From IMG/VR virus record IMGVR_UViG_3300034157_000063: a DNA stretch of 64,000 nt; one strand, given 5' to 3'. Below the pieces are notes generated by a model. The model worked only from the letters and a program-made list of their open reading frames with translations, was not told the DNA's origin and did not search any database. The translations under genes were made by a program, and so were the position numbers. Source of the DNA: a virus (lineage: Duplodnaviria; Heunggongvirae; Uroviricota; Caudoviricetes). This document shows, one piece after another, positions 3,150 to 60,217 of the stretch (position 1 is its first letter; the number at the start of each line of letters is the position of its first letter).

Positions 3150-3184
3150 CTGACGATTTATACATAAAAATATAACAAATAATA

Positions 3185-3207
3185 AGAAGCTTCGGCTTCT
3201 TTTTTTT
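3185..3207 (+). terminator. intrinsic terminator with UUCG loop
   Basis: AGAAGC-TTCG-GCTTCT plus T-run. Confidence 0.8.
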
Positions 3208-7494: not shown

Positions 7495-8829
7495 ATGACT
7501 ACTAACAGCACAATGATTAAAGTTTCCCCAAAAGCACTGCGTAAACATGCACTGAACTGCATCCACTCTCAGACGCCATTCTTCGTTTGGGGTAATCCGG
7601 GTATCGGTAAGTCTCGCATCCTGCAAGCTCTTGTTGAGAAAATGGGTTTCCACTTTGAAGACATTCGCTTGTCTCAAATCGAAAGCGTTGACCTTCGTGG
7701 TCTGCCAGCAAAAGACGAAAAAGTCAAACTCATTGCTGTAATGGATGAGAATGGCAAGCCAAAAATGGACGCAAAAGGTGAAGCAGTTTACATCAACGAA
7801 AAAGAAACTACCGTAACTTGGGCAATGCCTGACTTCCTTCGCCGTGCGAAAGAACAATGGGATAAATACAAGAAGCCAACGGCTTACTTCTTCGACGAAT
7901 TGAACTCCGGTTCACCTGCGACAATGGCTGCTGCTTACCAGTTCATTAACGACCGTCGCATCGGTTGCTTCGAACTCGGTTCTCAGGACGTAGTTTTCGC
8001 GGCTGGTAACTTGGAATCCGATGGTGGTGTGACTAACTCCATGCCGTTGCCTTTGGCTAACCGTTTCCGCCACTACTTGATGGACGTGAACACTGAACAA
8101 TGGTTGAACTTCGCCTCTGAGGCTGGTATGCACCCTTACGTGTTGGCTTACCTTTCAATCGGTGCGAACGGTAGCAAGTTGCAAGACTTTAACGTTGACC
8201 GCCTGTTGGCTTCCGACGAGAAAGCGTTCGCAACCCCACGTTCATGGGAAATGTTGAGCAAGGCTTTGTTCGCGGCTTACGGTGAGCATCAAGCGATTGC
8301 TGCACACAAAACGCTTGCAGAAGAAAGCGAAGAATTTAACGTCTACGAAGAAGACGATAAAATCAACGAAAACGACATTTCTGTAATCGCTGCATCTTGT
8401 GTCGGTAGCGGTATTGCGGTAGAGTTTGCTGGTTTCGTGAAGGAAGGTATGGACTTGCCAAAAGCCCGCGACATTCTTGATGGTAAGAAGTTGACTGTTG
8501 CGAACATGAAGGCTAAGACTTCCGCACAATACTTCATTGCGAACGATTGCTCTCACGCACTGAAAGAAATGAAAACGAAGTTGGAAGAAGTTAAGAAAGA
8601 AAGCGGTGATAAGACTGCCGAGTATGACAAAGTGTTGAAATCCTATGTCAAAAGCATGGAGAACTACATCTTGTTTGCAAAAGAACACTTTGCTCGTGAG
8701 TTGTTTGTCTTCGGTATCATCACCGTGATGTTGAAGCGTTACAAGGTCATGCCAATGCCTAACCACATGGACAAGAAAGTGTTTGACCTTGTGGCTACGG
8801 AGTTCAACGCGGCTCGCCTTAAAAACTAA
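7495..8829 (+). CDS. MoxR-like AAA+ ATPase
   Basis: Walker A GNPGIGKS, Walker B FFDELN, AAAYQFI, sensor AAGN, PLANRF arginine finger, TPRSWE; AGGAG SD. Confidence 0.9.
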   Translation: MTTNSTMIKVSPKALRKHALNCIHSQTPFFVWGNPGIGKSRILQALVEKMGFHFEDIRLSQIESVDLRGLPAKDEKVKLIAVMDENGKPKMDAKGEAVYINEKETTVTWAMPDFLRRAKEQWDKYKKPTAYFFDELNSGSPATMAAAYQFINDRRIGCFELGSQDVVFAAGNLESDGGVTNSMPLPLANRFRHYLMDVNTEQWLNFASEAGMHPYVLAYLSIGANGSKLQDFNVDRLLASDEKAFATPRSWEMLSKALFAAYGEHQAIAAHKTLAEESEEFNVYEEDDKINENDISVIAASCVGSGIAVEFAGFVKEGMDLPKARDILDGKKLTVANMKAKTSAQYFIANDCSHALKEMKTKLEEVKKESGDKTAEYDKVLKSYVKSMENYILFAKEHFARELFVFGIITVMLKRYKVMPMPNHMDKKVFDLVATEFNAARLKN

Positions 8830-9561: not shown

Positions 9562-11046
9562 ATGTCAATTCTCAAAGGTAAAAAGAAAGATGAAGTCAGC
9601 GAAAAGGGTGAAGAACTGTCACCAATTTTGCAGGCTGTAAAAGAACGTACCAAGCCTTATACGCCAGAAGAAATTGCAATTGTTGAAGACAAAATCTATC
9701 AGGCTCGTTCAAACTTTCTTATGCGTCAACCGTTCTTCGGCATCATGGCGATGAACCTTGAGCTTGTGGATGCGTCCAAATGGCTTGTAACGGCTGCTAC
9801 CGATGGTAAACACTTCTACTACAACGTAGGTTTCTTCCTCTTGCTTGAACCAGAAGAAATTCAGTTCGTGTATGGTCACGAAATCCTTCACGTTGCTTAC
9901 GACCACTTTGGCCGTGCCATTGCGACCGTGAACGACTACGACCACTACGTTGAAAACGATATGACGTTTGACGAAAAAATTCGCCTTCATGCGAAGTTGG
10001 CTAACATTGCCGCAGACTTCTGTGTAAACCGCGACTTGGTGACTTGCAAAGTGGGTACCCTTATCCGTAAAGAAGTTATCAAATTGTTCTACGATAAAAA
10101 GTATGACGATATGAGCATGGAAGAAATTTACAAAGAATTGTTGAAAGACCCTAACGCGGGCCAGAACGGCACTACGCTTGATGACCACTCGGTTGGTACG
10201 GGTATTCAGCAAGAAGGTAACGAAAAACGTAAAGCTGACCCTAATGGCGAAGGTGAAGGCGAAGGCGAAGGTGAAGGCGGTGAAAAAAGCGAAGGTGGTG
10301 CTGACTTCAAACCTCGTGACTTGACACCAGAAGAACGTGAAGAAATTATGCGTGACTTCAAAGATCGTATGATTAACGCCTACGACCAACAGAAGGACAA
10401 CGAAGAAGCTCGCCGTTCATCCGGTGGTTCTGACGCGGGTTCCTTGCCTGCTGACTTGGAGCGTTTGATTGAACGTATGCGTCGTCCAGAGATTAACTGG
10501 CGTCAATACATCCGCACTCGCATTACTTCATTGTTCCGCGAGAGTGACGATTGGAGCCGTCCGTCACGCCGTTCTTTCGATGGCGAATTCATTATGCCGG
10601 GTTTCCGTCAAATTGAAAAAGTGGACATTCACATTGCAATCGACTGTTCCGGTTCCATTGGTGAAGTTGAAATGGCAGACTTCTTGTCAGAGATTGCCGG
10701 TATTACTCAGCAATACAAACGCGACTTTAAACTTCGCATTTGGACATTTGATGGTAAAGTGTATCCACAAAGCTTGAAAGAATACACACCTTCAAACATT
10801 CGTAGTTTGCCTAAATACGAGTTCTTTGGTGGTGGTGGCACATCTTTCCTTGCTAACTGGGCGTTCATGCGTGAAAAGCGTATCAAACCTAAGCTTTTCA
10901 TCATGTTCACTGACGGTTACACTGGTGATGGTTTTGGCGTGCCGAACTTCTGTGATACCATTTATGTGGTTAACACCGAAGTGATTATTCCAAAAGAATA
11001 CGGTGCAACAATTCGCTACAAACCGCGTTCACAACAAGCCTACTAA
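9562..11046 (+). CDS. DUF2201-type putative metallopeptidase with C-terminal VWA domain (paralog 2)
   Basis: TAATDG, HExxH (GHEILHVAYDH), NIAADFCVN, G/E-rich linker, INWRQYI, MIDAS IDCSGSI, GGGT, FTDG. Confidence 0.9.
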   Translation: MSILKGKKKDEVSEKGEELSPILQAVKERTKPYTPEEIAIVEDKIYQARSNFLMRQPFFGIMAMNLELVDASKWLVTAATDGKHFYYNVGFFLLLEPEEIQFVYGHEILHVAYDHFGRAIATVNDYDHYVENDMTFDEKIRLHAKLANIAADFCVNRDLVTCKVGTLIRKEVIKLFYDKKYDDMSMEEIYKELLKDPNAGQNGTTLDDHSVGTGIQQEGNEKRKADPNGEGEGEGEGEGGEKSEGGADFKPRDLTPEEREEIMRDFKDRMINAYDQQKDNEEARRSSGGSDAGSLPADLERLIERMRRPEINWRQYIRTRITSLFRESDDWSRPSRRSFDGEFIMPGFRQIEKVDIHIAIDCSGSIGEVEMADFLSEIAGITQQYKRDFKLRIWTFDGKVYPQSLKEYTPSNIRSLPKYEFFGGGGTSFLANWAFMREKRIKPKLFIMFTDGYTGDGFGVPNFCDTIYVVNTEVIIPKEYGATIRYKPRSQQAY

Positions 11047-36481: not shown

Positions 36482-36553
36482 TATTGATTGAAGAATGTCT
36501 TCGGAGTTCTTCACAATAAACTAAACTAAATCTGCCGAATGGGGGTATTAAAA

Positions 36554-38458
36554 ATGAGTAAAGTAATTGGTATTGACTTAGGTACAACAAATTCTTGTGT
36601 ATCTATATTTGAAAATGGTAAACAAAAAGTAATTGAGAACGCTGAAGGAGCAAGAACTACTCCATCTATCGTCTCTTATAGCAAAGAAGGTGAAACTTTG
36701 GTTGGGCAACCAGCAAAAAGACAATCTATCACCAACCCAACACAAACGTTCCACGCCATCAAACGACTTATTGGTCGTAAATTTGATGAAGAGGCTGTAC
36801 AAAAAGACATCAAGCTTGTCCCTTACAAAATTGTAAAGGCTGACAATGGTGATGCATGGGTAGAAGTTAAAGGTAAGAAGACTTCACCACAACAAATCTC
36901 AGCCGAAATTTTGATGAAAATGAAGAAAACTGCAGAAGACTACTTGGGTGAACCAGTGACAGAAGCTGTTATTACTGTGCCTGCTTACTTCAATGATAGT
37001 CAGAGACAAGCCACTAAGGATGCTGGTCGTATCGCTGGTTTGGACGTAAAACGTATTATTAACGAACCAACAGCGGCTGCATTGGCTTATGGCATGGACA
37101 AGTTGAAAAAAGATAGCACCATTATTGTTTATGACTTGGGTGGTGGTACTTTTGACGTGTCCGTTATTGAGATTGCAGAAGTTGATGGTGAGTCTCAGTT
37201 TGAAGTGCTTGCAACCAATGGTGATACATTCCTTGGTGGTGAAGACTTTGACAACTTACTTATTGAATACATTGTCAATGAGTTTAAGAAAGAAAGTGGT
37301 ATTGATATTAAACAAGACCCACTCGCTATGCAACGTATCAGAGATGCGGCTGAGAAAGCTAAAATTGAGTTGTCTTCAACTCAACAAACTGATGTGAACT
37401 TGCCTTATGTAACGGCTGATAGTTCTGGTCCTAAACACTTGAACGTTATTATCACCAGAGCTAAGTTCGAAGGTTTGGTAGAAGAATTGGTTGAAAGAAC
37501 TATTCTTCCATGCAAAACAGCTCTAAAAGATGCGGGTATTGAATTGTCAGCTATTGATGAAGTTATCTTGGTTGGTGGTCAGACTCGTATGCCACTTGTG
37601 CAAAAACGTGTTACCGAATTTTTTGGTAAGGAACCACGTAAAGATGTAAACCCTGATGAAGCTGTGGCTATTGGTGCAGCTATTCAAGCAGGTGTTATCA
37701 CAGGTGCTGTGACTGACGTATTGTTGTTAGACGTAACGCCATTGACGTTAGGTATTGAAACAATGGGTGGTGTATTTACTCCATTGATTCCTAAGAACAC
37801 TACTATTCCAACGAAGAAGACAGAAATGTGTTCAACAGCGGACGATAATCAAACTGCAGTAACTGTTCATGTGTTGCAAGGTGAACGTAAACAAGCGTCT
37901 GGTAACAAATCATTGGGTCGTTTTGATTTGAGAGACATTGCACCAGCACCAAAAGGCCAACCTCAAATTGAGATTACTTTTGATATTGATGCGAACGGTA
38001 TTTTGAATGTGTCTGCTAAGGACAAGAATACTGGTAAGTCTCAATCTGTTGTGATTAAAGCCAACTCTGGTTTGAGTGAAGCTGAAATTCAACAAATGAT
38101 TAATGACGCTGAAAAGAACAAATCAGATGATGAGAAGTTTGCTGCATTAGCTGATAGCCGTAACAAGGCTGACCATTTGGTTCACGAAGCTCGTAAAGTA
38201 ATGAATGAACCAAACTTGGATAGCACTGATAGATTGAATCTTGAAAACGCTATTTCCGATTTAGCTGGTTTGATTAAATCTGGATCTAAGACAGAACTTG
38301 ATTCTCGCTATGCCAGCCTTGAAAAAGTTCTTCATGGTATTACTTCTAAGCAATACCAGCCTGATCAAGCTCAACAGGCACAACAGCAACAAGGTCAGAA
38401 TCAAGGCACTAGTCAAGATGATGATTATATTGATGCTGAGTTTGAAGAACACAAGTAA
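36554..38458 (+). CDS. dnaK: Hsp70 chaperone DnaK
   Basis: [62 protein letters not shown]-terminal DAEFEE. Confidence 0.98.
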
Positions 38459-43712: not shown

Positions 43713-44657
43713 ATGCTTACAATTGATGAGGTTAAAGATTACTTAAACATGCCAGAACTCCCTATTCTACACACGAATAGTGAACGAAATTTTTATGTGA
43801 AAAAAATCTATGATGATTATTATTGTTCAAATCACGATCAATCTATCATTATTCGAGCCTTTGACGATTTTGAACCCATTAGTGTTTCAACGTCTCGCTA
43901 TTTTTCTGTCTACGTTAATGATTTTGTCGTTTTGACGTATGTAGGTGATCACTCTTATAATTCAGACATCTTCAAGATTTTTGATGGATTGCCCTTCATG
44001 ACATTAACACCAGAACATTTTTATTTTTTTATTACTGAAATCAATACAAAAGGCAAAGATTGTATTGTCTATTTCGATAGACTGTCTGAAAAAGTTATTG
44101 ATTATAATGGTGATCAGAATATCAATATCGTGTATGTTTGTTTGAAAGAACAAAAATATAAGGATAAATCTTTTTATAAAATTGTGAATGGTGAAATCTT
44201 GTTTGCTTTTGGTTTATACACTAATCAATATTTTGGCAGTGATGAATATAAAAAATATTTTGATAAAATAGCTTATTTGAGAAAATATTACAACTTATAC
44301 ACCTTTATAATCTATCAGTCTATTAATGCGGACACTGTTCGTTTGTTGGTGAGTACTTATGATTTTGAAATCGTGTTGAATAATTCAGTGACTCATAAAC
44401 ATCTGTTTGAAGAATCTAATCATTCAGCGGCTTATATTTACGAAAAAAATAAGCGTACAACTCCGATCACTATTAATACCATTGAGAGTGGTGATGCAGT
44501 CGGTGACTTAATTGAAAAAATTATTGATGGAGTGTTGAAAGAATATCCATGTTCATATTTCGATCTGTTTTTATCCGATGGAGGTGTGCGTTACACATCT
44601 TTAGATGATAAAGAAATGGATGACTATGTTAAATTATTCAGGATGAGCACGATCTAG
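43713..44657 (+). CDS. hypothetical protein with shared C-terminal motif (..KLFRMSTI)
   Basis: GGAG SD and promoter upstream. Confidence 0.7.
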   Translation: MLTIDEVKDYLNMPELPILHTNSERNFYVKKIYDDYYCSNHDQSIIIRAFDDFEPISVSTSRYFSVYVNDFVVLTYVGDHSYNSDIFKIFDGLPFMTLTPEHFYFFITEINTKGKDCIVYFDRLSEKVIDYNGDQNINIVYVCLKEQKYKDKSFYKIVNGEILFAFGLYTNQYFGSDEYKKYFDKIAYLRKYYNLYTFIIYQSINADTVRLLVSTYDFEIVLNNSVTHKHLFEESNHSAAYIYEKNKRTTPITINTIESGDAVGDLIEKIIDGVLKEYPCSYFDLFLSDGGVRYTSLDDKEMDDYVKLFRMSTI

Positions 44658-44682
44658 TTTAAAGTGCTTTTATTTTAGCTAT

Positions 44683-44860
44683 AAAAAAAGACCTGACATT
44701 GCTGTTAGGTCTTTTTAGTTTAAGGGAAGCGATCAGGTATATCAGCCAATAGAGTTAGAAGGAACCGTAATCATAGCCTTGAATAAGTAGATATGGAAAG
44801 CGAACAGGTAGATCGTCATTTAAAGAATGTTTAGAAGGAACCTAATTCATAGCCTTATCT
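44683..44860 (-). ncRNA. candidate tandem-pseudoknot small RNA, locus 1
   Basis: Minus-strand promoter TTGACT(44895)-16-TG-extended TAATAT; two copies of RAGGCTA-N7-GGTTCCTTCTAA (44831-44856, 44755-44780); GCAA-loop terminator with U7; no ORF. Confidence 0.7.
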
Positions 44861-44981
44861 AAGTACAATATTAGCAGATTATTTTTAAAAGTCAACAGTT
44901 TTGTTTGTTTTTTCTTTTAAATTATGTTAAAATCATTTCAATTGAAAACCTCATTAGATTTAACAGATAGGAGTATTTTTT

Positions 44982-45377
44982 TTGAGTGACTATGCAGAAT
45001 TTGAGATTGCAGCGGTATTAAATAATGTTATGATTATTGATAAATTATTCAAAGCTAATGGAAATATTCATAAGATTTGTTCACATTTGCAAACTGAAAA
45101 TGAAAGGTATCACGAGGAATCTGTAACGGGTTTAGATGTGGTTCGGGATTCTGATGATTATAGTTTTATGATTTATGCCAAAGATTTTAGATTTCGCATT
45201 AAAGAAAACATGATTTCTATTTTTTATGGTGAGTTTGGGATTAACGTTAACACTAGAACAGGAGATTCAATAGAAAATTTTAAACTATTATTTCTGACTC
45301 TGGTTAATATTCATTCCGACCAAAAATTTGAGAATGTTGAGCAATTCGTTGATCTGTATAACATGATTCATATTTAA
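44982..45377 (+). CDS. tandem-array family member (half-length), C-terminus ..DLYNMIHI
   Basis: NNVMIIDKLFKANG motif shared with the array. Confidence 0.7.
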   Translation: MSDYAEFEIAAVLNNVMIIDKLFKANGNIHKICSHLQTENERYHEESVTGLDVVRDSDDYSFMIYAKDFRFRIKENMISIFYGEFGINVNTRTGDSIENFKLLFLTLVNIHSDQKFENVEQFVDLYNMIHI

Positions 45378-45473
45378 GTCTTTGGAGTGTCCTATGCTTT
45401 TAAAAAATGATTCAACCTTACTTGATTCAATTTAAAAATTAGAGATCTCACTTTATTGTTACAGGAGAAAAAA

Positions 45474-45914
45474 ATGATTACCGTTGAAAACGAAATTAAA
45501 AGATTAGTGTTTAATAACATTTTAATTGTTGATGAACTCTTTAAAGCTAATGGGAAGATTTATGACGCTTGTCTTTCTTTACAAAATGAAAATAAATATG
45601 CTCATACTGAACGTATTAATGGGATGCAATTTACAAGATATCTAGGCAACAAAGCGTCTGACAACTATAATTTTACTGTTTATATTGATTCTCTTATGTT
45701 TTCTATCGAACTAGATCTTATTGTTTTTAAATATGGAGAGCTATCTATCCGTGTCGATTTTAAAGTTGGTCCAGATGAAGATACCCCTGATATACGGCTT
45801 GAAAAAATTAAAACATTTAAAGCTCTCTTTCTTTCTTTAATAAACATTAAAGCGGATCAAACATTTGAAAATATCGATCAATTCGTTGATCTCTATAACA
45901 TGGTTCATATTTAA
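45474..45914 (+). CDS. tandem-array family member (half-length), C-terminus ..DLYNMVHI
   Basis: Close paralog of 44982 (NNILIVDELFKANG). Confidence 0.75.
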   Translation: MITVENEIKRLVFNNILIVDELFKANGKIYDACLSLQNENKYAHTERINGMQFTRYLGNKASDNYNFTVYIDSLMFSIELDLIVFKYGELSIRVDFKVGPDEDTPDIRLEKIKTFKALFLSLINIKADQTFENIDQFVDLYNMVHI

Positions 45915-45930
45915 GTATTAGGAGTAACCT

Positions 45931-46701
45931 ATGTTGTTAAAAAATGATTCACGATTACTTGAAGTTTATTTTAACATTAGTGATTTGGCTCAATTTGAGG
46001 TTGATACGACATTCGCCAGTGAATTAATATCGCCCAGCGAAAAACGGTTTTTAATGAACGCTGTTCGTGCTTTAGCAAACGACATATTATCAGTTTCAGG
46101 CGACTTTAAAACCAGTATTAATTTTTATATTCGTCAATCAGGTTTATTGATTGAAATGGACTCTTCTTATCCATTTTTAATGCAATCATCTTTTAATTTT
46201 GAATTGTCTGAACCTTTAATTAAAGATAAGTCTCTAGATCATTATGTGAGCGATTTAATTTATCAAAATGATCGATATCGAACGTATGGGAGTTATTTAA
46301 CTCTTGTTGATTTTAGGTCTTTCTTTGAAAACATTAGATTTATTGACAACTTATTTGAATTTGATGGTAAATTTTATTCTTTTTATAAAGACATTGATTT
46401 TACAATGGGGGCACGCGAATTTAAATTTGATTCATTTAATTCTTTCGTACATTGTGGTGAACACCCCTTGTTAAAAATTCAATTTGGAGATCTTCTGGTC
46501 ACCATTTCCCCTGATGAGTTTTCTTTTGCTATTATGGGTGGTTCCGCTATTTTGACCATATCTAAGCAGAGTAGAAGGAATTATCATCAGAAAAAAGATA
46601 ACTTAGCAAAGCTTATTATAGATATGTATAATATGGAGTTGATGCTAGAAGTTGATACCATGAAAAATTTACTGCTATTGATTAGAATGAAGGCTATTTA
46701 G
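45931..46701 (+). CDS. tandem-array family member, C-terminus ..LLIRMKAI
   Basis: ALANDIL, SYPF and ENIRFIDNLFEFDG motifs. Confidence 0.75.
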   Translation: MLLKNDSRLLEVYFNISDLAQFEVDTTFASELISPSEKRFLMNAVRALANDILSVSGDFKTSINFYIRQSGLLIEMDSSYPFLMQSSFNFELSEPLIKDKSLDHYVSDLIYQNDRYRTYGSYLTLVDFRSFFENIRFIDNLFEFDGKFYSFYKDIDFTMGAREFKFDSFNSFVHCGEHPLLKIQFGDLLVTISPDEFSFAIMGGSAILTISKQSRRNYHQKKDNLAKLIIDMYNMELMLEVDTMKNLLLLIRMKAI

Positions 46702-46731
46702 TCTTCATTTTTTTGTTGCTTTATTTTAGGC

Positions 46732-46917
46732 AAAAAAAAACCTGTATCGCTACAAGTTTGTTTTATTTGAGGGAATTGACAAGGTTTAATCAGTTTAATA
46801 TTTACAAGTTAAGTTAGAAGGAACCTTAATGCTAGCCTCGGTGAAATAGTTGGTATGGAAATCGAAATGGTGAATCTTAGAATGAGTTAGAAGGAACCAA
46901 CTTCATAGCCTTACCGT
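46732..46917 (-). ncRNA. candidate tandem-pseudoknot small RNA, locus 2
   Basis: Minus-strand promoter TTGACT(46952)-17-TACTAT; motif copies 46887-46912 and 46814-46839; GCGA-loop terminator with U9; no ORF. Confidence 0.75.
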
Positions 46918-47015
46918 TTGTATATAGTATGATATTCGAACTAAAAAGTCAAGCGTTTTTTTTCTTGATTTAATGATTTTAAACTGTTAAAGTGTTTACA
47001 TAATGGAGAGGTTCG

Positions 47016-47858
47016 ATGTTTGATGAAAGTCTGCCTTATCAGTTAAAAACTGGTAGGCAATTAATAAAGTTGTCAGATTTAAAAAATGCGGAAATCATAG
47101 GCGTTCAGGATGAACACAATTTAAAAATTTCTCGTTTTTTAAACATTCTTGCTGATGATATTCTGTGTATGCGTGATGATGTAAAAAGTTATGTTTTTAT
47201 AGATATTGTTGATGACGTATTTTCTATATGTATAGACCATTCATATCCTTTTTTGGAATTTTTAAACAGTTCTAATCCCGTTAAAATAAATGAAGCATTG
47301 AATGGCGTTGATTTTCTTTTAAATCTAAATCTATCAATAGATTTAATTACTCCGGCCTTGTTGGCGATATTTCTTGATGAATTAAAAGCTGATGGTTGGT
47401 ATAAATTTAATGATGATGATGAGCGAGAATCGGAAACTGGTTTAATGGAACAGTTCATTCACATCAATGCATTGGATACTTTTTATGTGTTTGATATCAT
47501 CGATCAGGCATTAGGCTATGATGGAACACTATCCAAACGGGTTAAAAATAATATTTACCATGTAATGCCATTCTCAGAAGAAGATGAGTTCTCAATGTTT
47601 GAATTTAGAAACTTTAATTCAAATAATATTGAGATGACACTCACCAACCATGATTTCTATATTAAAGTTATCAATAACACTATTAGATTTGAATATTTAT
47701 ATGATTCGATGGAGTTTAATTTAAATAAAAAACATCCAGTGGCCTTTAATATTAAAAAGTTTACTCAATTCTTTTTAAGTTTTTACAATATTCAACATGA
47801 TACAGACCATGATGACTTACCCCGCTGGATTAAACTGCAGGAAATGATAGCCATATAA
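47016..47858 (+). CDS. tandem-array family member, C-terminus ..KLQEMIAI
   Basis: ILADDIL, SYPF and IIDQALGYDG motifs. Confidence 0.75.
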   Translation: MFDESLPYQLKTGRQLIKLSDLKNAEIIGVQDEHNLKISRFLNILADDILCMRDDVKSYVFIDIVDDVFSICIDHSYPFLEFLNSSNPVKINEALNGVDFLLNLNLSIDLITPALLAIFLDELKADGWYKFNDDDERESETGLMEQFIHINALDTFYVFDIIDQALGYDGTLSKRVKNNIYHVMPFSEEDEFSMFEFRNFNSNNIEMTLTNHDFYIKVINNTIRFEYLYDSMEFNLNKKHPVAFNIKKFTQFFLSFYNIQHDTDHDDLPRWIKLQEMIAI

Positions 47859-47986
47859 CTGATATTATTGTTGCCATTCATTATACTTTATTTTTTACCA
47901 TTAAAATTTTATAATTTCATTAAAAATGAAGTATATTTAATGGTTTTAATATGTTATAATAATCCATTATTTTAGAGGCTCTGCAC

Positions 47987-48826
47987 ATGGCTAAATCAAA
48001 AAAAGATAACGAAATTATTATGCTTTCCAATAATGACAACCATACTGTTATGTTAACCGATTTACGTCGAGTAAACATTGAAGGAATCAGTAAGCAAAAA
48101 AATAATAGAATGTTAGCCTACTTTGACCTACTTGTTGACGATCTTTTAATTTATAACGGCGATTTTGAGTTAGATGTCGAAATTTCAATGAGTGCTGATA
48201 ACATGTTTATGAGTATCATGTTAGAAAAATCATATCCTTATTACTACGATTGTATTTTTCTTTGTTTTGATCTGAAAGAAAAAGCAAGTATTCAAAGTTT
48301 ATCGAGAGCACTTACTAATGTTGACAGTGAGGAACGCAATGATTGGGATGACAAAGATGATATTGTGAAATTTATTGACTGCAGTATTGGTTACGATCAT
48401 GAATTGATGTTGAGTGATTACCCACCTATGTTTATTGAGTATGGGTGTGGATTGATGAGTAATGTTCGCCTTGTTGATAAAGCACTCTATTTTGACAATC
48501 AACTGGTTAAGACTTTTCATGATAATAACATATACACAGGTAATGATATAAGAATTGATTCGTCATCATTTACGTTTACTATGCAGGGAACAAGAGAGCC
48601 TGATCTTTTTGTTAATTCCACTTACCTTGATATTAGAATTGAAAATGATGGTGTGAAGTTTACGTTTGATAAGGATAATACGTTTACCTTTACAACAACG
48701 ACTAATTTTGAACGTGACTTTAATATGCTGCAGATGTTCATTAAAATGTTTATTGAAAAAAAGAAAGATCACGATATTCATGATTTGAAAAGTGAGCTTT
48801 TGTTGATTGAAATGGAAACTATTTGA
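47987..48826 (+). CDS. tandem-array family member, C-terminus ..LLIEMETI
   Basis: LLVDDLL, SYPY and NVRLVDKALYFD motifs. Confidence 0.75.
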   Translation: MAKSKKDNEIIMLSNNDNHTVMLTDLRRVNIEGISKQKNNRMLAYFDLLVDDLLIYNGDFELDVEISMSADNMFMSIMLEKSYPYYYDCIFLCFDLKEKASIQSLSRALTNVDSEERNDWDDKDDIVKFIDCSIGYDHELMLSDYPPMFIEYGCGLMSNVRLVDKALYFDNQLVKTFHDNNIYTGNDIRIDSSSFTFTMQGTREPDLFVNSTYLDIRIENDGVKFTFDKDNTFTFTTTTNFERDFNMLQMFIKMFIEKKKDHDIHDLKSELLLIEMETI

Positions 48827-48827
48827 A

Positions 48828-49152
48828 ATGAATGAATATAAATATTTACTTAATGCCGATAATTTTTACATGTCTTCCATGACAGACTTAAAAACAACAA
48901 CATTTAAAAAATTAAAAGATGAACATAAACGAACATTATTAAATAGGTATTTAAGCCTGTTAGTTGATGATGCCTTATCTAACAATAAACCTGACTTCAA
49001 AATAGAATTTCACATGGCTACGTACTGACTGTATGGATCATGATACATTAATGGTTAATCAATTTTTTATTATTTATCTTGAAAAATGGCTTGGTCATAA
49101 GATTACAGATTTAAAAATAGAAATACAATTACTTGAGATGGAGTGCATTTAA
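48828..49152 (+). pseudogene. internally deleted, frameshifted tandem-array member
   Basis: N-terminal fragment 48828-49028 (LLVDDAL) and, in another frame, C-terminal fragment 49033-49152 ending KITDLKIEIQLLEMECI*. Confidence 0.6.
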
Positions 49153-49941
49153 ATGAAAAATGAAGAATGGGAATTTGATGTAGATTCAGACTCCGATTAT
49201 TATTCTGTCTTAATTTCAAGTGGTCACTCATACCATATGTTACTGAGTTCATTAAAGAATATTACAATTATTGATAGTAATCACACGCCCACTGATCATG
49301 TTAATATGCAAAAATATCTCACCTTGATTGTAGACGATGTTTTATTGTTTGGTTATAATGTTGAAGTTAGTTTTAGCCTCTCTATCAATAACCACATTAT
49401 GTTGTTAGAAGTTGAAAAGCTATATCCCTTTGTAAAAGATAATATTGATTTTAGGATCGATCTTACACAAGATGTCGATATTAAGCATGTGGTGGCAATA
49501 TTGGATGACACCGTTGCTCGTGATGAAGCTAATAATAATCATATTCATTACACTGATCTTAAAAATCGGAACACTTTAAAAAACGTTGATATTGTTGATA
49601 ATGCATTATTTTATGATGGAACATTGAAAGAGAGTTTCTTAAACAATTTAATTAAAAGTGACTCCTTTAAATTTTCTTTTTTCGATATGTCTATTCTGAA
49701 CAATGGCGTTTCTGGTATTGAACTTCGCTCTGAAATTTATGACATGTCTATTTTTATTAATCAAGTTAAGGTTACTTTCAGATTAGCGGATGATTCATAT
49801 AGCTGGAACTTTACAGATGATACCGAATTTGATATTTTGTCTATTCGTCAATTATTTACATTATATCTAAGCAAACTTTTAAATAAAAAAATAACTGATT
49901 TAAAGCGTGAGATACAATTAATTGAAATGGAGTCTATTTAA
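49153..49941 (+). CDS. tandem-array family member, C-terminus ..QLIEMESI
   Basis: LIVDDVL, LYPF and NVDIVDNALFYDG motifs. Confidence 0.8.
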   Translation: MKNEEWEFDVDSDSDYYSVLISSGHSYHMLLSSLKNITIIDSNHTPTDHVNMQKYLTLIVDDVLLFGYNVEVSFSLSINNHIMLLEVEKLYPFVKDNIDFRIDLTQDVDIKHVVAILDDTVARDEANNNHIHYTDLKNRNTLKNVDIVDNALFYDGTLKESFLNNLIKSDSFKFSFFDMSILNNGVSGIELRSEIYDMSIFINQVKVTFRLADDSYSWNFTDDTEFDILSIRQLFTLYLSKLLNKKITDLKREIQLIEMESI

Positions 49942-50702
49942 TGTCAAATACCTATTTTAAAAAAATTGAGATTGAAAGTGGTAGCACTTACGCATTGTTT
50001 GTAAGTGAATTAAAATATATTTCTATAATTGATATTCCATATACTTCTTTTGAACATTTACAGATGATTAAATACATTGATATGATTGTTGATGATGTGA
50101 TGGTTTATGGAGTTGATTTTAAAGTTGAATTTAGTATTTATATTGATCATCAAACAATGAATTTTGAATGCAATTATCTTTATCCATTCATTAACGGTCT
50201 AGTCATATTTATTATCGATCTGAGTCGAGATGTTAGCGTTCAACGTGTTTCTAAAACACTGGATCATATGATTGATATCAATATCATGCATGATCAGCAG
50301 ATTAATTATACAGATCTCAGTCAGCATACTATGTTTGGTAACATTGATATCGTTGATCAAGCCTTATTTTATGATGGTAAATTAAAAGAAGTATTTTCTA
50401 AGCGTTCACTTTTTGAAGAAAGTATTAAATTTTCCTTCTTTGACTTAAATTTTTTAAATAATGGGGCGACGGAAATTCAACTTCTTTCTCTCAGTGCTGG
50501 TGTATCTATTTGGATTGATATTAATAAGGTTTCATTTAGATTTGATGGTAAAGATTCATCTAGTTGGTATTTTACTGATGAGGCTTCATTTGATATGTTA
50601 TCAATACGTCAATTATTTGTACTCTACCTTGGCAAAAAATTGAATAAGCCCATTATAGACGTTCGAAGAGAAATCCAATTGATTGAAATGCAAACTATTT
50701 AG
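49941..50702 (+). CDS. tandem-array family member, C-terminus ..QLIEMQTI
   Basis: Close paralog of 49153; TAATG stop-start coupling. Confidence 0.8.
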   Translation: MSNTYFKKIEIESGSTYALFVSELKYISIIDIPYTSFEHLQMIKYIDMIVDDVMVYGVDFKVEFSIYIDHQTMNFECNYLYPFINGLVIFIIDLSRDVSVQRVSKTLDHMIDINIMHDQQINYTDLSQHTMFGNIDIVDQALFYDGKLKEVFSKRSLFEESIKFSFFDLNFLNNGATEIQLLSLSAGVSIWIDINKVSFRFDGKDSSSWYFTDEASFDMLSIRQLFVLYLGKKLNKPIIDVRREIQLIEMQTI

Positions 50703-52778: not shown

Positions 52779-55181
52779 TCACTTAAGCAGTGAGTTGATT
52801 TCAATCTTTTCGTAACTGTTTTCTGTATTCCTACTAGTAAACACATAAGCACTATCAGTCGTAATCGCTACATCTGTATCGTCATTTAATATCGGGGTTT
52901 CACCGACCTTAACACTTTCAAACAAATCAAACACTGATGGTAATGTGTTCAAATACTCAACAAATGCTGGCATTCTCTCAGACAGCAAAGTACCGTTTGT
53001 TTCTGCTGAATGAACATGACCATACAAGTTAGCATCCATATAAACCACTTTCCTTTCAACCAAGTCGAGGTAAGCCACATACTTGGTCAAATTCTTACCT
53101 TTCACTTCAAAGACAAATTGAGCACGGCTTGGTTCGTAAAGATTGCCTTCTTCAGCATTCTCACCCATTTGCAATGTGCCGACTAAATCATCAGCCGCAT
53201 CGAATGGTTGACTGTTGAACGACAAGATATTCCAGACCGCATAACGCACACCAGAATTAACCAATTTGTCGATATACAAATCAATCATTTGGCAACCACG
53301 ACCCGCAGTGTCTTGACTAATCACTGGATCTCCTGAGAATACTGCACCAGCATTTGTATTTCTATCCAAGAAATGATCTTCACTTGTCGTTGAGTAAACG
53401 GCATTCCAGCAACAAGCCCCTTTTGAACCCCAGTTTTCATCAAAGAAGTTCCAGCTATTATCAAACCAGATGTTACCAGAATCCTTCATCTGCCAGTAAC
53501 TTGCACTGCGAATGAAATTGATATTTTCAGGCATATCAAACACGGTACCACGACCATAATTAGCCGCAAGGTTTTGATCATTGGTTTGAAGCTTAATCTT
53601 GCTTGTAGCTTTATCCAGCATAACGCCTTTTGGAAAGAGAACTTCCATACGTTTAGCAATCTCTGTATTGACAGCAGTTACGATAGTTTCTACAGATTCA
53701 GCAGACAACATGACTTTGCCATTTTTAATTGGCTTGTAGACTTTTTTCTCAGGTGCTACATAACGTTGATACACAGGCTTTGGTGAAGGAACAAACATAG
53801 GCTCAGGAGCAGGCTCAAGATTACCTTTGAACTTTTCAATCAACATCGCTAAGGCGTCACTGGATGGAATGCCAGATTTAACTTCTGTAATAGCCGGTTG
53901 CTCAACCTCAGTTTTTACCACTTCGACAATGGCAGGTTCCACAATATCAACGGCTTTTACTTTTTGTTTCTTCTCTGCTTTCACAGGTGCTACGAATTCT
54001 TTTTCCACTGAGGCGTCTTTTTCAACACGTTGAATAAAGTGGGCACTTGTCCAGTTACCTTTTGGTGCATAGATGAAGTGCTGACGATCATTAATAGTGG
54101 TCACATACTTTTTCAACTTCAACAGTTGTAACGTATCAAATTGATCAATCTTAGCCACAATCGCATCCACAGCTTTTTCACCAAACACTTCGTAAAGCTT
54201 ATGGAAACGACGCATCAAGTCACCTTGACGGTTTGAAAGCATATTAAACACTGTATCATCTTTGGTCAAGACTTTGTTTTCAACCTTGGCGTTGAAGCTT
54301 TTAAGCTCGCCATTGCACAAAGTGCCATAGACAGCCGTTACTTTCGGGAAGTTGTAATCTTTTGGGTGAAGCTGGAACATAAATTTCTTCCAGTCTTGTT
54401 GACGCATAGCCACGTCATCAGCCAAATTATTAGACTTGTTCAACAAAGACAACAAAGCCTTACGCTCTTTACGAGTGAATTTTTTGAATTTTACTTTGGT
54501 GCGAAGTGAAACATCCGCATCGGACATTGCTGCAGCCAAACGCATTACATCGGTAGCGTCTTTAATAGTGAAATTAAGACCGCTTTCAATCGCTTGCTTG
54601 ATAATTACGATACCGTTCTCTTTGAAGCCGAAATCGCTCAAATTGATAGTTTCTTGTGTATGGTTAGTAAATAGCTGGCTGGCGAAATCCTTTTGTTGAT
54701 CATTCCAACGGTTTTTAGATTGAACAAGTGTCGCCCTGATAGTATTCAAGGTGTCTTCTTTTTCAAGATGAAGGACTTTCAAGTTCTTTTGATCTTTGAG
54801 AGCTGGACGTTCTACTTTATCATCAGCGAAATAGTCTGGGCTAAAACCAACATACATCAAAATCTGGCAGAACCAGTATTCAGCTTCAGATTTATCAAGC
54901 ACTTCTTTTGGGAAGTTTTTGTAAACAACAGCCGAATCCATATCACGATCAGAAGCTGTCACCTCTTTGAAAGCAGGTTCCACCGCCAACCAGAATGACT
55001 CTAAATCTTGTGCTGTATAGGTTTGAAGTTGTTCGATGACTTCACGAGATGGAGTCCAGCCATAGTGAACCATGTTGGCAAATACAGTAGACAGTTCTTC
55101 TTTGGTCGCAGGTGTGCCGGAAACAACGCGAGTTGCTTGCACAAAATTGTTTGCCAAAAGAATTGTGTTTGTATTTATCAT
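52779..55181 (-). CDS. large protein with C-terminal TerD-like domain
   Basis: VYKNFP, RQGDLMRRF, YAPKGN, YGRGT, FSGDP..GCQMIDLY..GVRYAVWNILSF motifs; GGAG SD before ATG 55181. Confidence 0.6.
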   Translation of the reverse strand: MINTNTILLANNFVQATRVVSGTPATKEELSTVFANMVHYGWTPSREVIEQLQTYTAQDLESFWLAVEPAFKEVTASDRDMDSAVVYKNFPKEVLDKSEAEYWFCQILMYVGFSPDYFADDKVERPALKDQKNLKVLHLEKEDTLNTIRATLVQSKNRWNDQQKDFASQLFTNHTQETINLSDFGFKENGIVIIKQAIESGLNFTIKDATDVMRLAAAMSDADVSLRTKVKFKKFTRKERKALLSLLNKSNNLADDVAMRQQDWKKFMFQLHPKDYNFPKVTAVYGTLCNGELKSFNAKVENKVLTKDDTVFNMLSNRQGDLMRRFHKLYEVFGEKAVDAIVAKIDQFDTLQLLKLKKYVTTINDRQHFIYAPKGNWTSAHFIQRVEKDASVEKEFVAPVKAEKKQKVKAVDIVEPAIVEVVKTEVEQPAITEVKSGIPSSDALAMLIEKFKGNLEPAPEPMFVPSPKPVYQRYVAPEKKVYKPIKNGKVMLSAESVETIVTAVNTEIAKRMEVLFPKGVMLDKATSKIKLQTNDQNLAANYGRGTVFDMPENINFIRSASYWQMKDSGNIWFDNSWNFFDENWGSKGACCWNAVYSTTSEDHFLDRNTNAGAVFSGDPVISQDTAGRGCQMIDLYIDKLVNSGVRYAVWNILSFNSQPFDAADDLVGTLQMGENAEEGNLYEPSRAQFVFEVKGKNLTKYVAYLDLVERKVVYMDANLYGHVHSAETNGTLLSERMPAFVEYLNTLPSVFDLFESVKVGETPILNDDTDVAITTDSAYVFTSRNTENSYEKIEINSLLK

Positions 55182-55336
55182 GTTCAATATTTCTCCTAAT
55201 TGATTTAATGTAACATCAAATAATACGCTCATAAAGCACTTAAGTCAAGCACCTTTATGCTTTTTTTTGTGATTTTTTGATAGCATATCTTCTTATCATG
55301 TGATATCATTAGGCACCAATAATGTGGAGAATATTT

Positions 55337-56127: not shown

Positions 56128-57312
56128 ATGTATCCAGTTATCAAACACGGCTCAGAAGATTCTTTGGACATTGATGCGTATATCATCATTCCAGAACCAC
56201 TTACTATGCAAGAAGCCAAGAAGCTTTGCGATTCTTACAAAGAAGTAAACGGCAACCTTTTGAGCGTTAAAGACGGTGTTGTTAACTGGTGCTACAAAGG
56301 TACCGTGGATGAGTGTAACAACTCTATCCTTGCAACCTATGCTCTGCACAAACAAGAAGCAGCCAACCCGATTACTGCATCTTTGCCACGTTCGTATGCT
56401 TTGAAAATGATTCGCACTGTTCGTGGGTTGCTCTCTTATCATTCTCGCACTGAAAAGCGTGAAGAAGTCAAAAAAGCATTGCAATCTGCGGATATGTTGT
56501 TCAAGTTGGATGTGTTGACTGGCATTGATTTGCGTGATGTGGCTGACTATCAAAAATCGTCGCTGGTAGAAACCTACAAGTTCTTTGCCTTTCAGTTAGG
56601 TCAAACTATGGCACTGTTAAAAGATAATGTGGAACTGTTTACTAAAAGCTCAGTGGCTGAATACTACCCTGAGTTGACTGGCTACTTGCAGCGTAAAGAA
56701 GGTGAACCTGTAGACGCATTGCAAAAAATGTGGGCTGACTTTGGTGTTTACTTGAAAGAAACTGTTCGTAAAGTTGAAAAGCATGAATTGTATGCCACTG
56801 ATTATCAGGGTGTTCGTGAAGTGTTCGATTGTAAGAAAGAAATTATCTTACCACCAGTGGTTGTATTTGACATTGATGGTACTTTGCTGGATGAAAAACA
56901 TCGTGCTCAATACCGTGATGTGAAAGATTGGGATAACTATTTTGACTTGTGTCACTTGGATACACCTATTCAACACATTATTGATTTGACCAAAGAATAT
57001 CGGGCAAAAGGTTTCGAAATTTGGTTGATGAGTGGGCGAGTGGATCGAATCATGGATAAAACCATTAAATCTATGGAAGATTATGGTGTTTGTTATGACC
57101 GTATCAAATTGCGTAGCCCAGAAAACCGAGTACCTGATTTTGTGATCAAGCCTGCTTGGATTTCAAAATACATCGGATTGGAACGTGTTGTAGCTGTTTA
57201 TGATGATACTGACCGTGTTATCGAAGGTTTTCGTAAAAAGGGGTTGAACGTCATTGATGTTAAATTGATGGGCGTTCCAGCTCAGGTTAAAAAGCCAAAA
57301 ATGAAGCCTTAA
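56128..57312 (+). CDS. putative nucleotidyltransferase fused to a HAD phosphatase (PNKP 3'-phosphatase-like)
   Basis: N-terminal HGSEDSLDIDAY (hGS..DhD); C-terminal VFDIDGTL, LMSGR, K, YDD HAD motifs. Confidence 0.7.
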   Translation: MYPVIKHGSEDSLDIDAYIIIPEPLTMQEAKKLCDSYKEVNGNLLSVKDGVVNWCYKGTVDECNNSILATYALHKQEAANPITASLPRSYALKMIRTVRGLLSYHSRTEKREEVKKALQSADMLFKLDVLTGIDLRDVADYQKSSLVETYKFFAFQLGQTMALLKDNVELFTKSSVAEYYPELTGYLQRKEGEPVDALQKMWADFGVYLKETVRKVEKHELYATDYQGVREVFDCKKEIILPPVVVFDIDGTLLDEKHRAQYRDVKDWDNYFDLCHLDTPIQHIIDLTKEYRAKGFEIWLMSGRVDRIMDKTIKSMEDYGVCYDRIKLRSPENRVPDFVIKPAWISKYIGLERVVAVYDDTDRVIEGFRKKGLNVIDVKLMGVPAQVKKPKMKP

Positions 57313-59428: not shown

Positions 59429-60217
59429 TCATTTTAATTTTTCTAGCAGTAATTCCATTTCAGTGACGATCTTATTCACATCAGACTTATACAAACCAGC
59501 CGAACTAATGTTATTCACTTCAATGATTTTCGGACCTTTATCAGTTAAAGCAATGTCTATAACAAATGCTTGGCTTGGCGACCACAATTCAACCATTTTC
59601 TGTGCAAATACCAAGGCTTCTTTGTCAATCGAATCCGAAGTGATAAGTTGTCCACGTATTTTATATAAGCTACCTGTTACTATCTTTCCATCAATAACAA
59701 AGAATCGGTATTCAGCTAATATGGTTTTCTTCTCAGAAATGATTAAGAACTTATCTTTATGGGCATCAGTTATTTTAGTCGCAAGGGCCATCAATAAGTC
59801 TTCTTTCTTAAATAATCCACCTGTGATTAATTTATCATCTTCCAACGGACGAGCAAATACAGAATCCCATTCTTCTGGTATTTGTATGTCTGTAACCTTT
59901 TGTTTAAGGTATTCACCATTTAACATGTGCTCTTTTGTCCAGTTTTGTGTCCAACTGGCATAGTTAAAGTGGTCATTTGAAAATGAACCGGGCGAGAAAC
60001 CTCTTTCAGAGGCCATTCTGGATACGCGATAAGATCCTAATACAAATATATTTTTTGTGTCTGTAGGTTCAAATTTATCAAAAGTGTCTTTGAGATACAT
60101 ATTTTCATCATTTTTATAAATATCAATTTCAACTAACTCAACATTGTTAGATTTCAATATGTTTTTTATATTATCAATACCCACTTCAAAGTTTAAATTA
60201 TTTTGAACAATCCACAT
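59429..60217 (-). CDS. ATP-grasp domain protein (DUF4343/R2K-like)
   Basis: FARP..DDKLITG, EYRFFVIDGKIVTGSLY, FVIDIA..KIIEVN..SAGLY. Confidence 0.75.
   Translation of the reverse strand: MWIVQNNLNFEVGIDNIKNILKSNNVELVEIDIYKNDENMYLKDTFDKFEPTDTKNIFVLGSYRVSRMASERGFSPGSFSNDHFNYASWTQNWTKEHMLNGEYLKQKVTDIQIPEEWDSVFARPLEDDKLITGGLFKKEDLLMALATKITDAHKDKFLIISEKKTILAEYRFFVIDGKIVTGSLYKIRGQLITSDSIDKEALVFAQKMVELWSPSQAFVIDIALTDKGPKIIEVNNISSAGLYKSDVNKIVTEMELLLEKLK

What the first reader, a model, noticed from the sequence alone, without database searches (positions are those of the whole stretch)
44683..44895. Minus-strand ncRNA gene made of two tandem putative H-type pseudoknots (locus 1)
Seen: an ORF-free interval with a minus-strand promoter (TTGACT-16-TGcTAATAT) and a GCAA-loop U7 terminator, defining an RNA of about 175 nt. 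It has two units 76 nt apart. Each unit has motif I, AAGGCUA-N7-GGUUCCUUCUAA (N7 length fixed, sequence variable), and motif II, UACCUG(U/A)UCGCUU(U)CC. AAGG pairs with CCUU (P1). The GGU inside the P1 loop pairs with the ACC of motif II (P2: UAGGU/ACCUG in unit 1, only GGU/ACC in unit 2), leaving a 1-nt L2, which is H-type pseudoknot topology. Established: type III toxin-antitoxin antitoxins (ToxI, AbiQ, CptI) are tandem pseudoknot RNA repeats, and phages can escape ToxIN with pseudo-ToxI repeats. Inference A: an RNA decoy or antitoxin mimic against a host RNase or abortive-infection system. Inference B: the unpaired UCCUUCU, UUCCAU and UUCCCU segments are complementary to ANGGA, so the RNA could pair with Shine-Dalgarno sites or with CsrB/RsmY/RsmZ-type RNAs.
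Basis: partly seen in the sequence, partly recalled or inferred. Interest (0 to 1): 0.82.

Follow-up and report, generated by a model that had tools for sequence, protein, structure and literature searches.

The report
Phage small RNAs tied to TerD-domain protein
The two small RNA genes are real, but each unit is a long interrupted hairpin, not a pseudoknot, and belongs to a widespread, apparently undescribed RNA family that always occurs with one uncharacterised ~700-residue protein, much as Y RNAs occur with Ro60.

Summary
On the minus strand, 44683-44895 holds a promoter, two ~70-nt units and a terminator, and a paralogous gene lies at 46732-46952. The proposed H-type pseudoknot is not supported. 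Across 121 related units, the "variable N7" plus GGU forms a covarying 10-bp helix with motif II. AAGG pairs with the 3' CCUU and its flanks, not with the loop CCUU.

The unit is not private to this genome. It occurs in more than 116 viral contigs, in the cultured phages XacN1 and Xoo-sp13, and in Planctomycetota and Coprococcus genomes, often in arrays beside tRNA genes. GGCUA(U), UUCCUUCUA and UUUCC are nearly invariant. Rfam 15 has no match and no paper was found.

In 32 of 33 non-redundant loci fetched by the RNA pattern alone, the units lie on the same strand as a ~705-aa protein with a helical N-domain and a C-terminal TerD fold. The window's copy is 52779-55232(-). In 121 Planctomycetota genomes, all 5 with the RNA have the protein. 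Some units carry a YrlA-like tRNA-mimic insert.

Best reading: partner RNAs of a Y-RNA-like ribonucleoprotein. Binding and function are inferred, and no expression data could be obtained. First readers of this scan noted the same arrays in two other genomes.

The parts
44868..44895 (-). Promoter of RNA gene 1: TTGACT, 16-nt spacer, TG-extended TAATAT, preceded by an A-rich tract
   Evidence: Sequence and scan. The promoter sits at the same place in the three paralogous or orthologous two-unit genes.
44790..44863 (-). Unit 1. P1 5' strand 44853-44860, CUA 44850-44852, P2 5' strand 44840-44849, loop starting UCCUUCUAA 44810-44839, P2 3' strand 44801-44809, CUUU 44797-44800, P1 3' strand 44789-44796
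   Evidence: Covariance model R1 scores it 57.9 bits, E 4.7e-11. The MFE fold gives the same helices.
44719..44787 (-). Unit 2. P1 5' strand 44777-44783 pairs with 44719-44725; P2 5' strand 44764-44773 pairs with 44730-44738; the loop starts UCCUUCUAA at 44763
   Evidence: R1 scores it 52.4 bits, E 8.4e-10. MFE fold.
44683..44716 (-). Intrinsic terminator: interrupted GC-rich hairpin with a GCAA loop, then U7. It is flanked by A5 upstream, so it could also stop the convergent + strand gene
   Evidence: The terminator stems of the four related genes differ in sequence but keep pairing.
46924..46952 (-). Promoter of paralogous RNA gene 2: TTGACT-17-TACTAT
46852..46919 (-). Unit 3 (first unit of gene 2)
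   Evidence: R1 59.5 bits, E 2e-11
46766..46846 (-). Unit 4 (second unit of gene 2), with GAGG/CCUC in place of AAGG/CCUU
   Evidence: R1 48.2 bits, E 7.9e-9
46732..46759 (-). Terminator of gene 2: 9-bp stem, GCGA loop, U9
52779..55232 (-). Gene of the inferred partner protein (817 aa): helical N-domain (about residues 9-400), disordered insert (about 412-501), C-terminal TerD-fold domain. It is on the same strand as the RNA genes, 5.9 and 7.9 kb upstream of them
   Evidence: tblastn with the protein that flanks unit arrays elsewhere. AlphaFold model with pLDDT 83. TerD structures matched at E 2.5e-5 to 2e-3.

Best explanation
Locus 1 (and locus 2) is a stand-alone gene for a dimeric small RNA. 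Each ~70-nt unit folds into a terminal stem P1, a conserved asymmetric internal loop (CUA opposite A/C-UUU), a 10-bp stem P2, and a large loop that begins with the invariant UUCCUUCUA and continues with a variable segment. The units belong to a widespread family found in large phages and some bacteria. This family most likely acts as the RNA partner of one conserved protein with a helical N-domain and a C-terminal TerD domain, encoded in the window at 52779-55232(-). By analogy with Y RNAs and Ro60, the conserved stem and internal loop with UUCCUUCUA would be the protein-binding module. The variable loop, which in some relatives is a tRNA-like YrlA-type module, would be an adaptor to other RNAs or proteins of the translation or RNA-processing machinery. 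Shown here: the fold (by covariation), the RNA strand, the family's spread, and the RNA-protein genomic linkage. Inferred: transcription in this genome, physical binding, and the adaptor role.
For: Fold: 37 hand-picked units give a covariation score of 0.666 against 0.20 in shuffles (0/500) and at most 0.197 when partners are slid. 121 non-redundant units give 0.765 against 0.197, with 15 of 17 pairs changing on both sides and 88.6% of cells paired. 153 of 2032 cells are G-U, so the pairing is RNA on this strand. Family: all four window units score 48-60 bits. The 147 fetched loci hold 217 hits. GGCUA-U, UUCCUUCUA and UUUCC are 90-100% conserved. Linkage: the only protein family shared by the loci is the ~705-aa protein, present in 32 of 33 non-redundant loci that were fetched by RNA pattern alone. 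All 101 units lie on the gene's strand, mostly 5-150 nt from its ends. Whole-record searches find units only near the gene: 2 in a 10.7-Mb Singulisphaera genome, 1 in a 3.1-Mb Coprococcus MAG, 5 in a 437-kb phage and 8 in a 186-kb phage. In an independent sample of 121 Planctomycetota genomes, 5 have the RNA and 8 have the protein. All 5 RNA genomes have the protein, with units upstream of it on the same strand (24-54 nt in three genomes, about 1.4 kb in a fourth), and none of the 113 protein-less genomes has the RNA. Cultured phages XacN1 and Xoo-sp13 carry 3 and 2 units in the gap upstream of their homologue. Trans-acting RNA: units also lie downstream of the gene, inside tRNA arrays with 0-20-nt gaps and always on the tRNA strand. 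In the window and its closest relative they have their own promoter and a covarying terminator. Y-RNA likeness: units in L119 and relatives enclose V arm, T arm, closed acceptor hairpin and D arm, in the order seen in YrlA (PMC4201824). They hit Rfam YrlA at 40 bits. The three Ro60 structures are the only long alignments to the N-domain model: 208-229 residues, Z 4.7-5.4.
Against: The Ro60 likeness is weak: the Z values lie within the noise range for helical repeats, there is no TROVE Pfam hit, and a profile comparison with a thin two-sequence TROVE alignment found nothing. In bacteria the units always sit in the 5' leader of the protein gene, which also fits a purely cis-regulatory role. The window's units lack any tRNA-like module, and they lie 6-8 kb from the protein gene, farther than in nearly all other genomes examined (one phage fragment has units 9.5 kb or more from its gene). 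The loci were ascertained through an exact conserved pattern, so the near-invariance of the boxes is partly built in. Additional units in the same loci and in XacN1 still keep UUCCUUCUA, however.
Confidence: 0.6

Rival explanations
1. The unit is a cis-regulatory leader element of the TerD-domain protein gene, either an autoregulatory operator or a riboswitch-like element whose 3' strand lies near the ribosome-binding site. Under this reading the window's detached copies are decoys or relics.
For: In Singulisphaera, Coprococcus and other Planctomycetota the units sit in the 5' leader. In many phages the last unit ends 12-40 nt before the start codon, with SD and ATG directly after it.
Against: Units also follow the gene, fill tRNA arrays kilobases away, and come in 2-8 copies. 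In the window and in L002 they have their own promoter and terminator and no downstream gene on that strand. Some units carry tRNA-like modules.
Confidence: 0.15
2. The RNA is a base-pairing regulator or sponge. The invariant pyrimidine tract UUCCUUCU pairs with purine-rich Shine-Dalgarno-like sequences, or mimics the 3' tail of 16S rRNA.
For: UUCCUUCUA is single-stranded in the model and invariant in 119-121 of 121 units, across phages of hosts from different phyla. From memory, it resembles the Bacillus-type 16S 3' end CCUCCUUUCUA. That is a lead, not a test.
Against: No target was identified. The strict linkage to one protein is not explained by pairing alone. The tract could equally be the protein's binding site.
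Confidence: 0.12
3. The unit is a processing element of tRNA operons: a self-cleaving ribozyme or nuclease landmark that punctuates polycistronic tRNA transcripts.
For: Units abut tRNA genes with gaps of -3 to 20 nt on the same strand. About 25 nucleotides are conserved in a small fold.
Against: Bacterial and many phage copies have no tRNA nearby. The window has none. No known ribozyme family matched. This reading does not explain the protein linkage.
Confidence: 0.07
4. The RNA is a type III antitoxin mimic or RNase decoy built from tandem pseudoknots.
For: It is a tandem structured RNA in a phage-like genome, with its own promoter and terminator.
Against: No toxin gene follows on the strand, and no PADLOC or Pfam hit was found in the neighbours. 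The units are ~70-nt hairpins and only two per gene. The proposed pseudoknot stem fails covariation. The family also occurs in bacterial chromosomes as the leader of a non-toxin-like gene.
Confidence: 0.03

Closest known systems
Ro60 (Rsr, TROVE) with Y RNAs, especially bacterial and phage YrlA (Rfam RF02553; Chen et al. 2014, PMC4201824)
   Same: These are small RNAs of 70-140 nt whose 5' and 3' ends form a long stem with conserved protein-site-like sequence. Several different copies occur per genome, encoded next to one large protein gene. They have a modular loop, which in a subset is a tRNA mimic in the order V, T arm, closed acceptor, D arm. The same phage and RNA-repair neighbourhoods appear: tRNA arrays, RtcB in Weasels2, and a PNKP-like phosphatase in the window.
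   Different: The partner protein has no TROVE or vWA signature and carries a TerD domain instead. The Ro-binding motif GNCGAAN0-1G is absent; the conserved boxes are GGCUAU, UUCCUUCUA and UUUCC. The window's units have no tRNA-like module and no Rfam hit. Singulisphaera has a true TROVE protein elsewhere in its genome.
Type III toxin-antitoxin antitoxin RNAs (ToxI, antiQ, CptI)
   Same: Tandem structured RNA repeats with a promoter and terminator, in a phage-related context.
   Different: There is no adjacent toxin, the units are twice as long, there are only two per gene, and the fold is a hairpin rather than a pseudoknot.
UG27 reverse-transcriptase ncRNA arrays of phages (bioRxiv 10.64898/2026.09.22.753630)
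   Same: Variable arrays of structurally conserved but sequence-diverse RNA units in phage genomes, tied to dedicated proteins. Each is a hairpin interrupted by an asymmetric internal loop with short conserved motifs.
   Different: UG27 units are ~150 nt with AUCN7UANAG and UUYA motifs, and they sit with a reverse transcriptase plus two accessory proteins. Here the only shared neighbour is the TerD-domain protein.
Stable non-tRNA RNAs and tRNA mimics in phage tRNA clusters (skipping-rope RNA RF02924; from memory, T4 species 1 and 2 RNAs)
   Same: tRNA-sized structured RNAs embedded in phage tRNA arrays. A skipping-rope RNA lies next to a unit array in L126.
   Different: Different sequence and fold, and no Rfam family matches the units.

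Membership tests
Unit family defined here (covariance model R1) | P1 stem, CUA / A-UUU internal loop, 10-bp P2 stem, loop starting UUCCUUCUA | tested here: met
   All four window units match end to end at 48-60 bits, E 2e-11 to 8e-9.
Unit family defined here (covariance model R1) | The same genome encodes the helical + TerD protein on the same strand | tested here: met
   Window 52779-55232(-) is a homologue: 31% identity over 373 aa by tblastn and a TerD fold. It lies farther away (6-8 kb) than in nearly all other genomes examined.
Type III TA antitoxin RNA (ToxI/antiQ/CptI) | A toxin endoribonuclease gene directly downstream on the same strand | tested here: not met
   Downstream on the minus strand is the 3' end of a convergent + strand ORF. 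No PADLOC or Pfam hit in the neighbours.
Type III TA antitoxin RNA (ToxI/antiQ/CptI) | Array of short (~34-36 nt) direct repeats, each folding as a pseudoknot | tested here: not met
   Two units of 69-74 nt. The proposed pseudoknot stem fails in relatives, while the nested stems covary.
Y RNA / YrlA (RF02553) | Match to the Rfam model at the gathering score | tested here: not met
   No hit in the window at the gathering score or at E<=10. Insert-bearing units elsewhere reach 40 bits against a cut-off of 69.
Y RNA / YrlA (RF02553) | Encoded next to a TROVE (Ro60) protein | tested here: inconclusive
   The partner has no TROVE Pfam hit, and HHalign against a thin TROVE alignment found nothing. 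Ro60 chains are nonetheless the only long structural alignments to its N-domain, at Z 4.7-5.4.
Y RNA / YrlA (RF02553) | Ro-binding motif GNCGAAN0-1G near the 5' end (PMC4201824) | tested here: not met
   The 5' conserved box is GGCUAU.
CsrB/RsmZ-type protein sponge | Multiple GGA motifs in hairpin loops | tested here: not met
   The conserved single-stranded tract is pyrimidine-rich (UUCCUUCUA), and the GG of AAGG is in a stem.
Independent sRNA gene | Own promoter and intrinsic terminator; a transcript detected | tested here: inconclusive
   The promoter and terminator are present and conserved in position in four related genes.

The most novel reading that the evidence does not exclude
The units and the helical + TerD protein form a previously unrecognised ribonucleoprotein class. 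It would be unrelated by descent to Ro60-Y RNA and spread across large phages and several bacterial phyla. Sets of adaptor RNAs would be matured alongside tRNAs, and their invariant UUCCUUCUA (16S-tail-like) and variable or tRNA-like loops would direct the protein to ribosomes, tRNAs or damaged RNAs during infection or stress.
Probability: 0.35. Interest if true: 0.9.

Novelty: new variant of a known kind. Interest (0 to 1): 0.8.

Why it matters
If the inferred pairing holds, it defines a new, abundant RNA family and assigns a first functional clue (RNA binding) to a large family of "hypothetical" phage and bacterial proteins, including relatives that NCBI names only as MXAN_6230/SCO0854-family RING proteins. 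It would be a second example, beside Ro60-Y RNA, of a protein served by a set of modular small RNAs, some of which mimic tRNA. It would also explain part of the unexplained non-tRNA content of phage tRNA islands. Cultured phages (Xanthomonas phages XacN1 and Xoo-sp13) and a cultured bacterium (Singulisphaera sp. GP187) carry the system, so it can be tested directly.

Tried and rejected
- Rfam 15 gave nothing relevant, either at the gathering score on the whole window or at E<=10 on 44600-47100.
- blastn of the locus against GenBank phages found no match.
- No whole genome is held for the window.
- H-type pseudoknot: rejected by pair counts.
- I first read the tRNA pieces inside some units (L036, L092) as a circularly permuted, intron-flanked tRNA. 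Folding and the YrlA hit show instead a closed-acceptor tRNA mimic of the YrlA type, so I dropped the splicing idea.
- I first took the genome contigs pattern hits for chance. L005, L006, L009 and L010 proved to be true members, with the protein gene alongside.
- Pfam found nothing for nine of the ten flanking ORFs (one sub-threshold GNVR hit) and PADLOC nothing for those scanned.
- The partner protein had no Pfam hit and no PDB sequence hit. Foldseek found nothing for the N-domain.
- HHalign against two TROVE sequences was negative, but it is a weak test.
- UG27 arrays were considered and excluded by motif and by neighbouring genes.
- Literature searches for the motif strings, for SCO0854/MXAN_6230 and for permuted phage tRNAs found nothing relevant.
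- Complex prediction was not used because it cannot take RNA.

Full report
**The observation.** There is an A-rich tract, TTGACT, a 16-nt spacer with TG, and TAATAT. Two copies of AAGGCUA-N7-GGUUCCUUCUAA follow, 76 nt apart, each followed by UACCUG(U/A)UCGCUU. A GC-rich hairpin with a U7 tail closes the interval. No ORF of 30 aa or more lies in 44658-44981. Motif I occurs four times in the window, all on the minus strand, against 0.02 expected. The other two copies form a second gene of the same build at 46732-46952. Both flanking genes are on the + strand. The RNA genes therefore lie antisense, in the gaps of a + strand gene array.

**The fold.** The MFE folds did not give the proposed pseudoknot. 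They gave a long interrupted hairpin per unit. Relatives settle the question. Earlier, narrower patterns had already found a 437-kb phage contig (L002) with five units.

In 86 of 131 distinct pattern matches, the 10 nt after AGGCUA (N9 plus the first U of UUCC) have a 9-10/10 complement downstream. That complement is always followed by A/C-UUUCC. I aligned 37 diverse units and imposed P1 (7 bp, formed by the 5' flank plus AGG with CCU plus the 3' flank) and P2 (10 bp). This gave 84.6% paired cells and a covariation score of 0.666, against 0.20 in shuffles (0 of 500) and at most 0.197 for slid partners.

With 121 non-redundant units aligned to the model, the score is 0.765 against 0.197. Fifteen of 17 pairs change on both sides, and 153 of 2032 cells are G-U. 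That marks pairing in RNA of this strand, not a DNA operator.

The "variable N7" is the rest of its 5' strand, and the U/A alternative in motif II is its covarying partner. The two bases before GG vary freely, while the loop UU they were meant to pair with never changes (52 and 28 of 119 unpaired). The same bases pair with the 3' end in 110 and 113 of 119 units, with four pair types. Unit 4 of the window (GAGG/CCUC) and the XacN1 units (CCGG/CCGG) are examples. A tertiary contact of the invariant loop cannot be excluded, because invariant columns carry no information.

**The family.** Model R1 finds exactly four units in the window, at 48-60 bits, and 217 hits in the 147 loci then held. Three boxes are nearly invariant: GGCUA-U, (C)UUCCUUCUA at the start of the loop, and UUUCC. 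The loop that follows is 11-90 nt and often carries an extra hairpin.

Units stand in arrays with gaps of 0-20 nt. Where tRNA genes are present, units lie on the tRNA strand and often abut the tRNA genes. Rfam 15 has no family for them. Searches of the paper library for the motif and for related terms found nothing. The UG27 ncRNA arrays recently described in phages are a different family.

**The protein.** Arrays repeatedly came in two blocks about 2.1 kb apart. The gap holds a ~705-aa ORF that is conserved from phages to the planctomycete Singulisphaera at 40% identity. tblastn finds it in 57 of the fetched loci and in the window. All-against-all clustering of ORFs shows it is the only protein family shared by the loci, in 32 of 33 non-redundant ones, although the loci were fetched by RNA pattern alone.

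All 101 units in those loci are on the gene's strand, mostly 5-150 nt from its start or stop. Four of five short "protein-less" loci have the gene elsewhere on the contig. Whole-record searches find units only near the gene.

In an independent sample of 121 Planctomycetota genomes, the RNA is in 5 and the protein in 8. All 5 RNA genomes have the protein. Units lie 24-54 nt upstream of it on the same strand in three of them and about 1.4 kb upstream in a fourth. None of the 113 protein-less genomes has the RNA. My own hypergeometric calculation gives a probability of about 3e-7.

Cultured phages carry the pair too. XacN1 has three units in the 496-nt gap before ORF396. Xoo-sp13 has two before gene 353. 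Rhodococcus phage Weasels2 has weak units after gp266, in a tRNA array with RtcB 3 kb away.

The window's copy is ORF 52779-55232(-), 817 aa. It has no Pfam, PADLOC or PDB sequence match. NCBIfam relates the family to "MXAN_6230/SCO0854 family RING domain-containing protein", below the cut-off, and PHROGs to an unknown-function family.

An AlphaFold model (pLDDT 83) shows a helical N-domain, a disordered insert and a C-terminal TerD fold. For the N-domain alone (pLDDT 87), Foldseek finds nothing. In the exhaustive structural search, the three Ro60 chains (phage phiLo, Deinococcus, Xenopus) are the only long alignments: 208-229 residues at Z 4.7-5.4, against ~70 residues for the other rows. That is suggestive but within noise for helical repeats. 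A profile comparison with a two-sequence TROVE alignment was negative. Singulisphaera also has a genuine TROVE protein elsewhere, so the two families are distinct.

**Likeness to Y RNA.** In one phage group (L036, L037, L119 and others) and in L092, the unit's loop holds tRNA pieces. I first read these as a permuted tRNA. Folding shows P1, P2, an anticodon-stem analogue, V region, T arm, an acceptor stem closed by a loop, and a D arm. This is the arrangement described for YrlA, the tRNA-mimicking Y RNA of bacteria and phages (PMC4201824). Rfam's YrlA model hits these units at 40 bits, below its cut-off of 69.

The family therefore shares with Y RNAs a terminal stem with conserved boxes, a modular loop, several versions per genome, and a gene next to one large protein. 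The boxes and the protein are different, however.

**The window's genes.** The two window genes and the two two-unit genes of L002 are colinear: A-tract, -35, -10, about 12 nt, a first unit whose P1 ends in CCAUA(C/U)C, a second unit whose P1 ends in CC(U/C)UNAA, and a terminator whose stem differs in sequence but keeps pairing. This supports independent transcription from the minus strand. No read data could be consulted.

Unlike nearly all other genomes examined, the window's RNA genes lie 5.9 and 7.9 kb from the protein gene. They are stand-alone and have no tRNA nearby. That argues for action in trans.

**Interpretation.** The most likely reading (0.6) is that these RNAs are partners of the TerD-domain protein in a Y-RNA-like ribonucleoprotein. 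The conserved stem, internal loop and UUCCUUCUA would be the protein site, and the variable loop an adaptor.

- A purely cis-regulatory role (0.15) fits the bacterial leaders but not the detached, multi-copy, tRNA-array copies.
- Base pairing through the pyrimidine tract (0.12) is compatible with the main reading and untested.
- A processing or ribozyme role (0.07) and the antitoxin-mimic idea (0.03) have little support.

Earlier AI notes of this scan describe the genome as a phage-like element of about 1.9 Mb, and they record the same arrays in two other genomes. I did not verify the genome size.

Noticed in passing
window 56128-57312 (+): ORF with a polynucleotide kinase-phosphatase (PNKP) type HAD phosphatase domain (Pfam HAD_PNKP, E 6e-17), about 900 bp from the TerD-domain protein gene. 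This is a possible RNA-repair context.
   Followed up: partly
window 59429-60217 (-): R2K-clade ATP-grasp protein (Pfam R2K_3 and R2K_2, E about 1e-18). L072 has a homologue near its unit array.
   Followed up: no
window 733-2043, 7495-8829, 9562-11046 (+): A weak AAA ATPase match and two DUF2201_N metallopeptidase proteins (9562-11046 also carries DUF2201/vWA-like domains). The window also holds a DnaK (36539-38458) and a soluble PAS-PAS-MCP protein (3724-5025), which is unusual cargo for a phage-like genome.
   Followed up: no
window 44982-50702 (+): The RNA genes sit in the gaps of a + strand array of paralogous ORFs with no Pfam match. L002 has a member too (2702-3538). An earlier first-reader note (e1-5437162) describes this array.
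   Followed up: no
L126 4740-4810 (+): A skipping-rope RNA (RF02924, 48 bits, above its cut-off) lies just before tRNA-Gln and a four-unit array, so different tRNA-sized structured RNAs cluster together in these phages.
   Followed up: no
L092 270-374 (+): A second YrlA-like match (40 bits) lies between two units, apart from the unit that encloses a tRNA-His-like module with G-1 and CCA.
   Followed up: partly
L149 (Rhodococcus phage Weasels2) 3721-3993 and 6085-6474: The partner gene gp266 sits at the end of a tRNA array. The 389-nt unannotated gap after it holds weak unit matches (16-22 bits). The small annotated ORF gp267 before it was not examined as possible RNA.
   Followed up: partly
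L064 7798-8154, L069 6028-6373: Phage-encoded tmRNA genes lie within a few kb of unit arrays.
   Followed up: no
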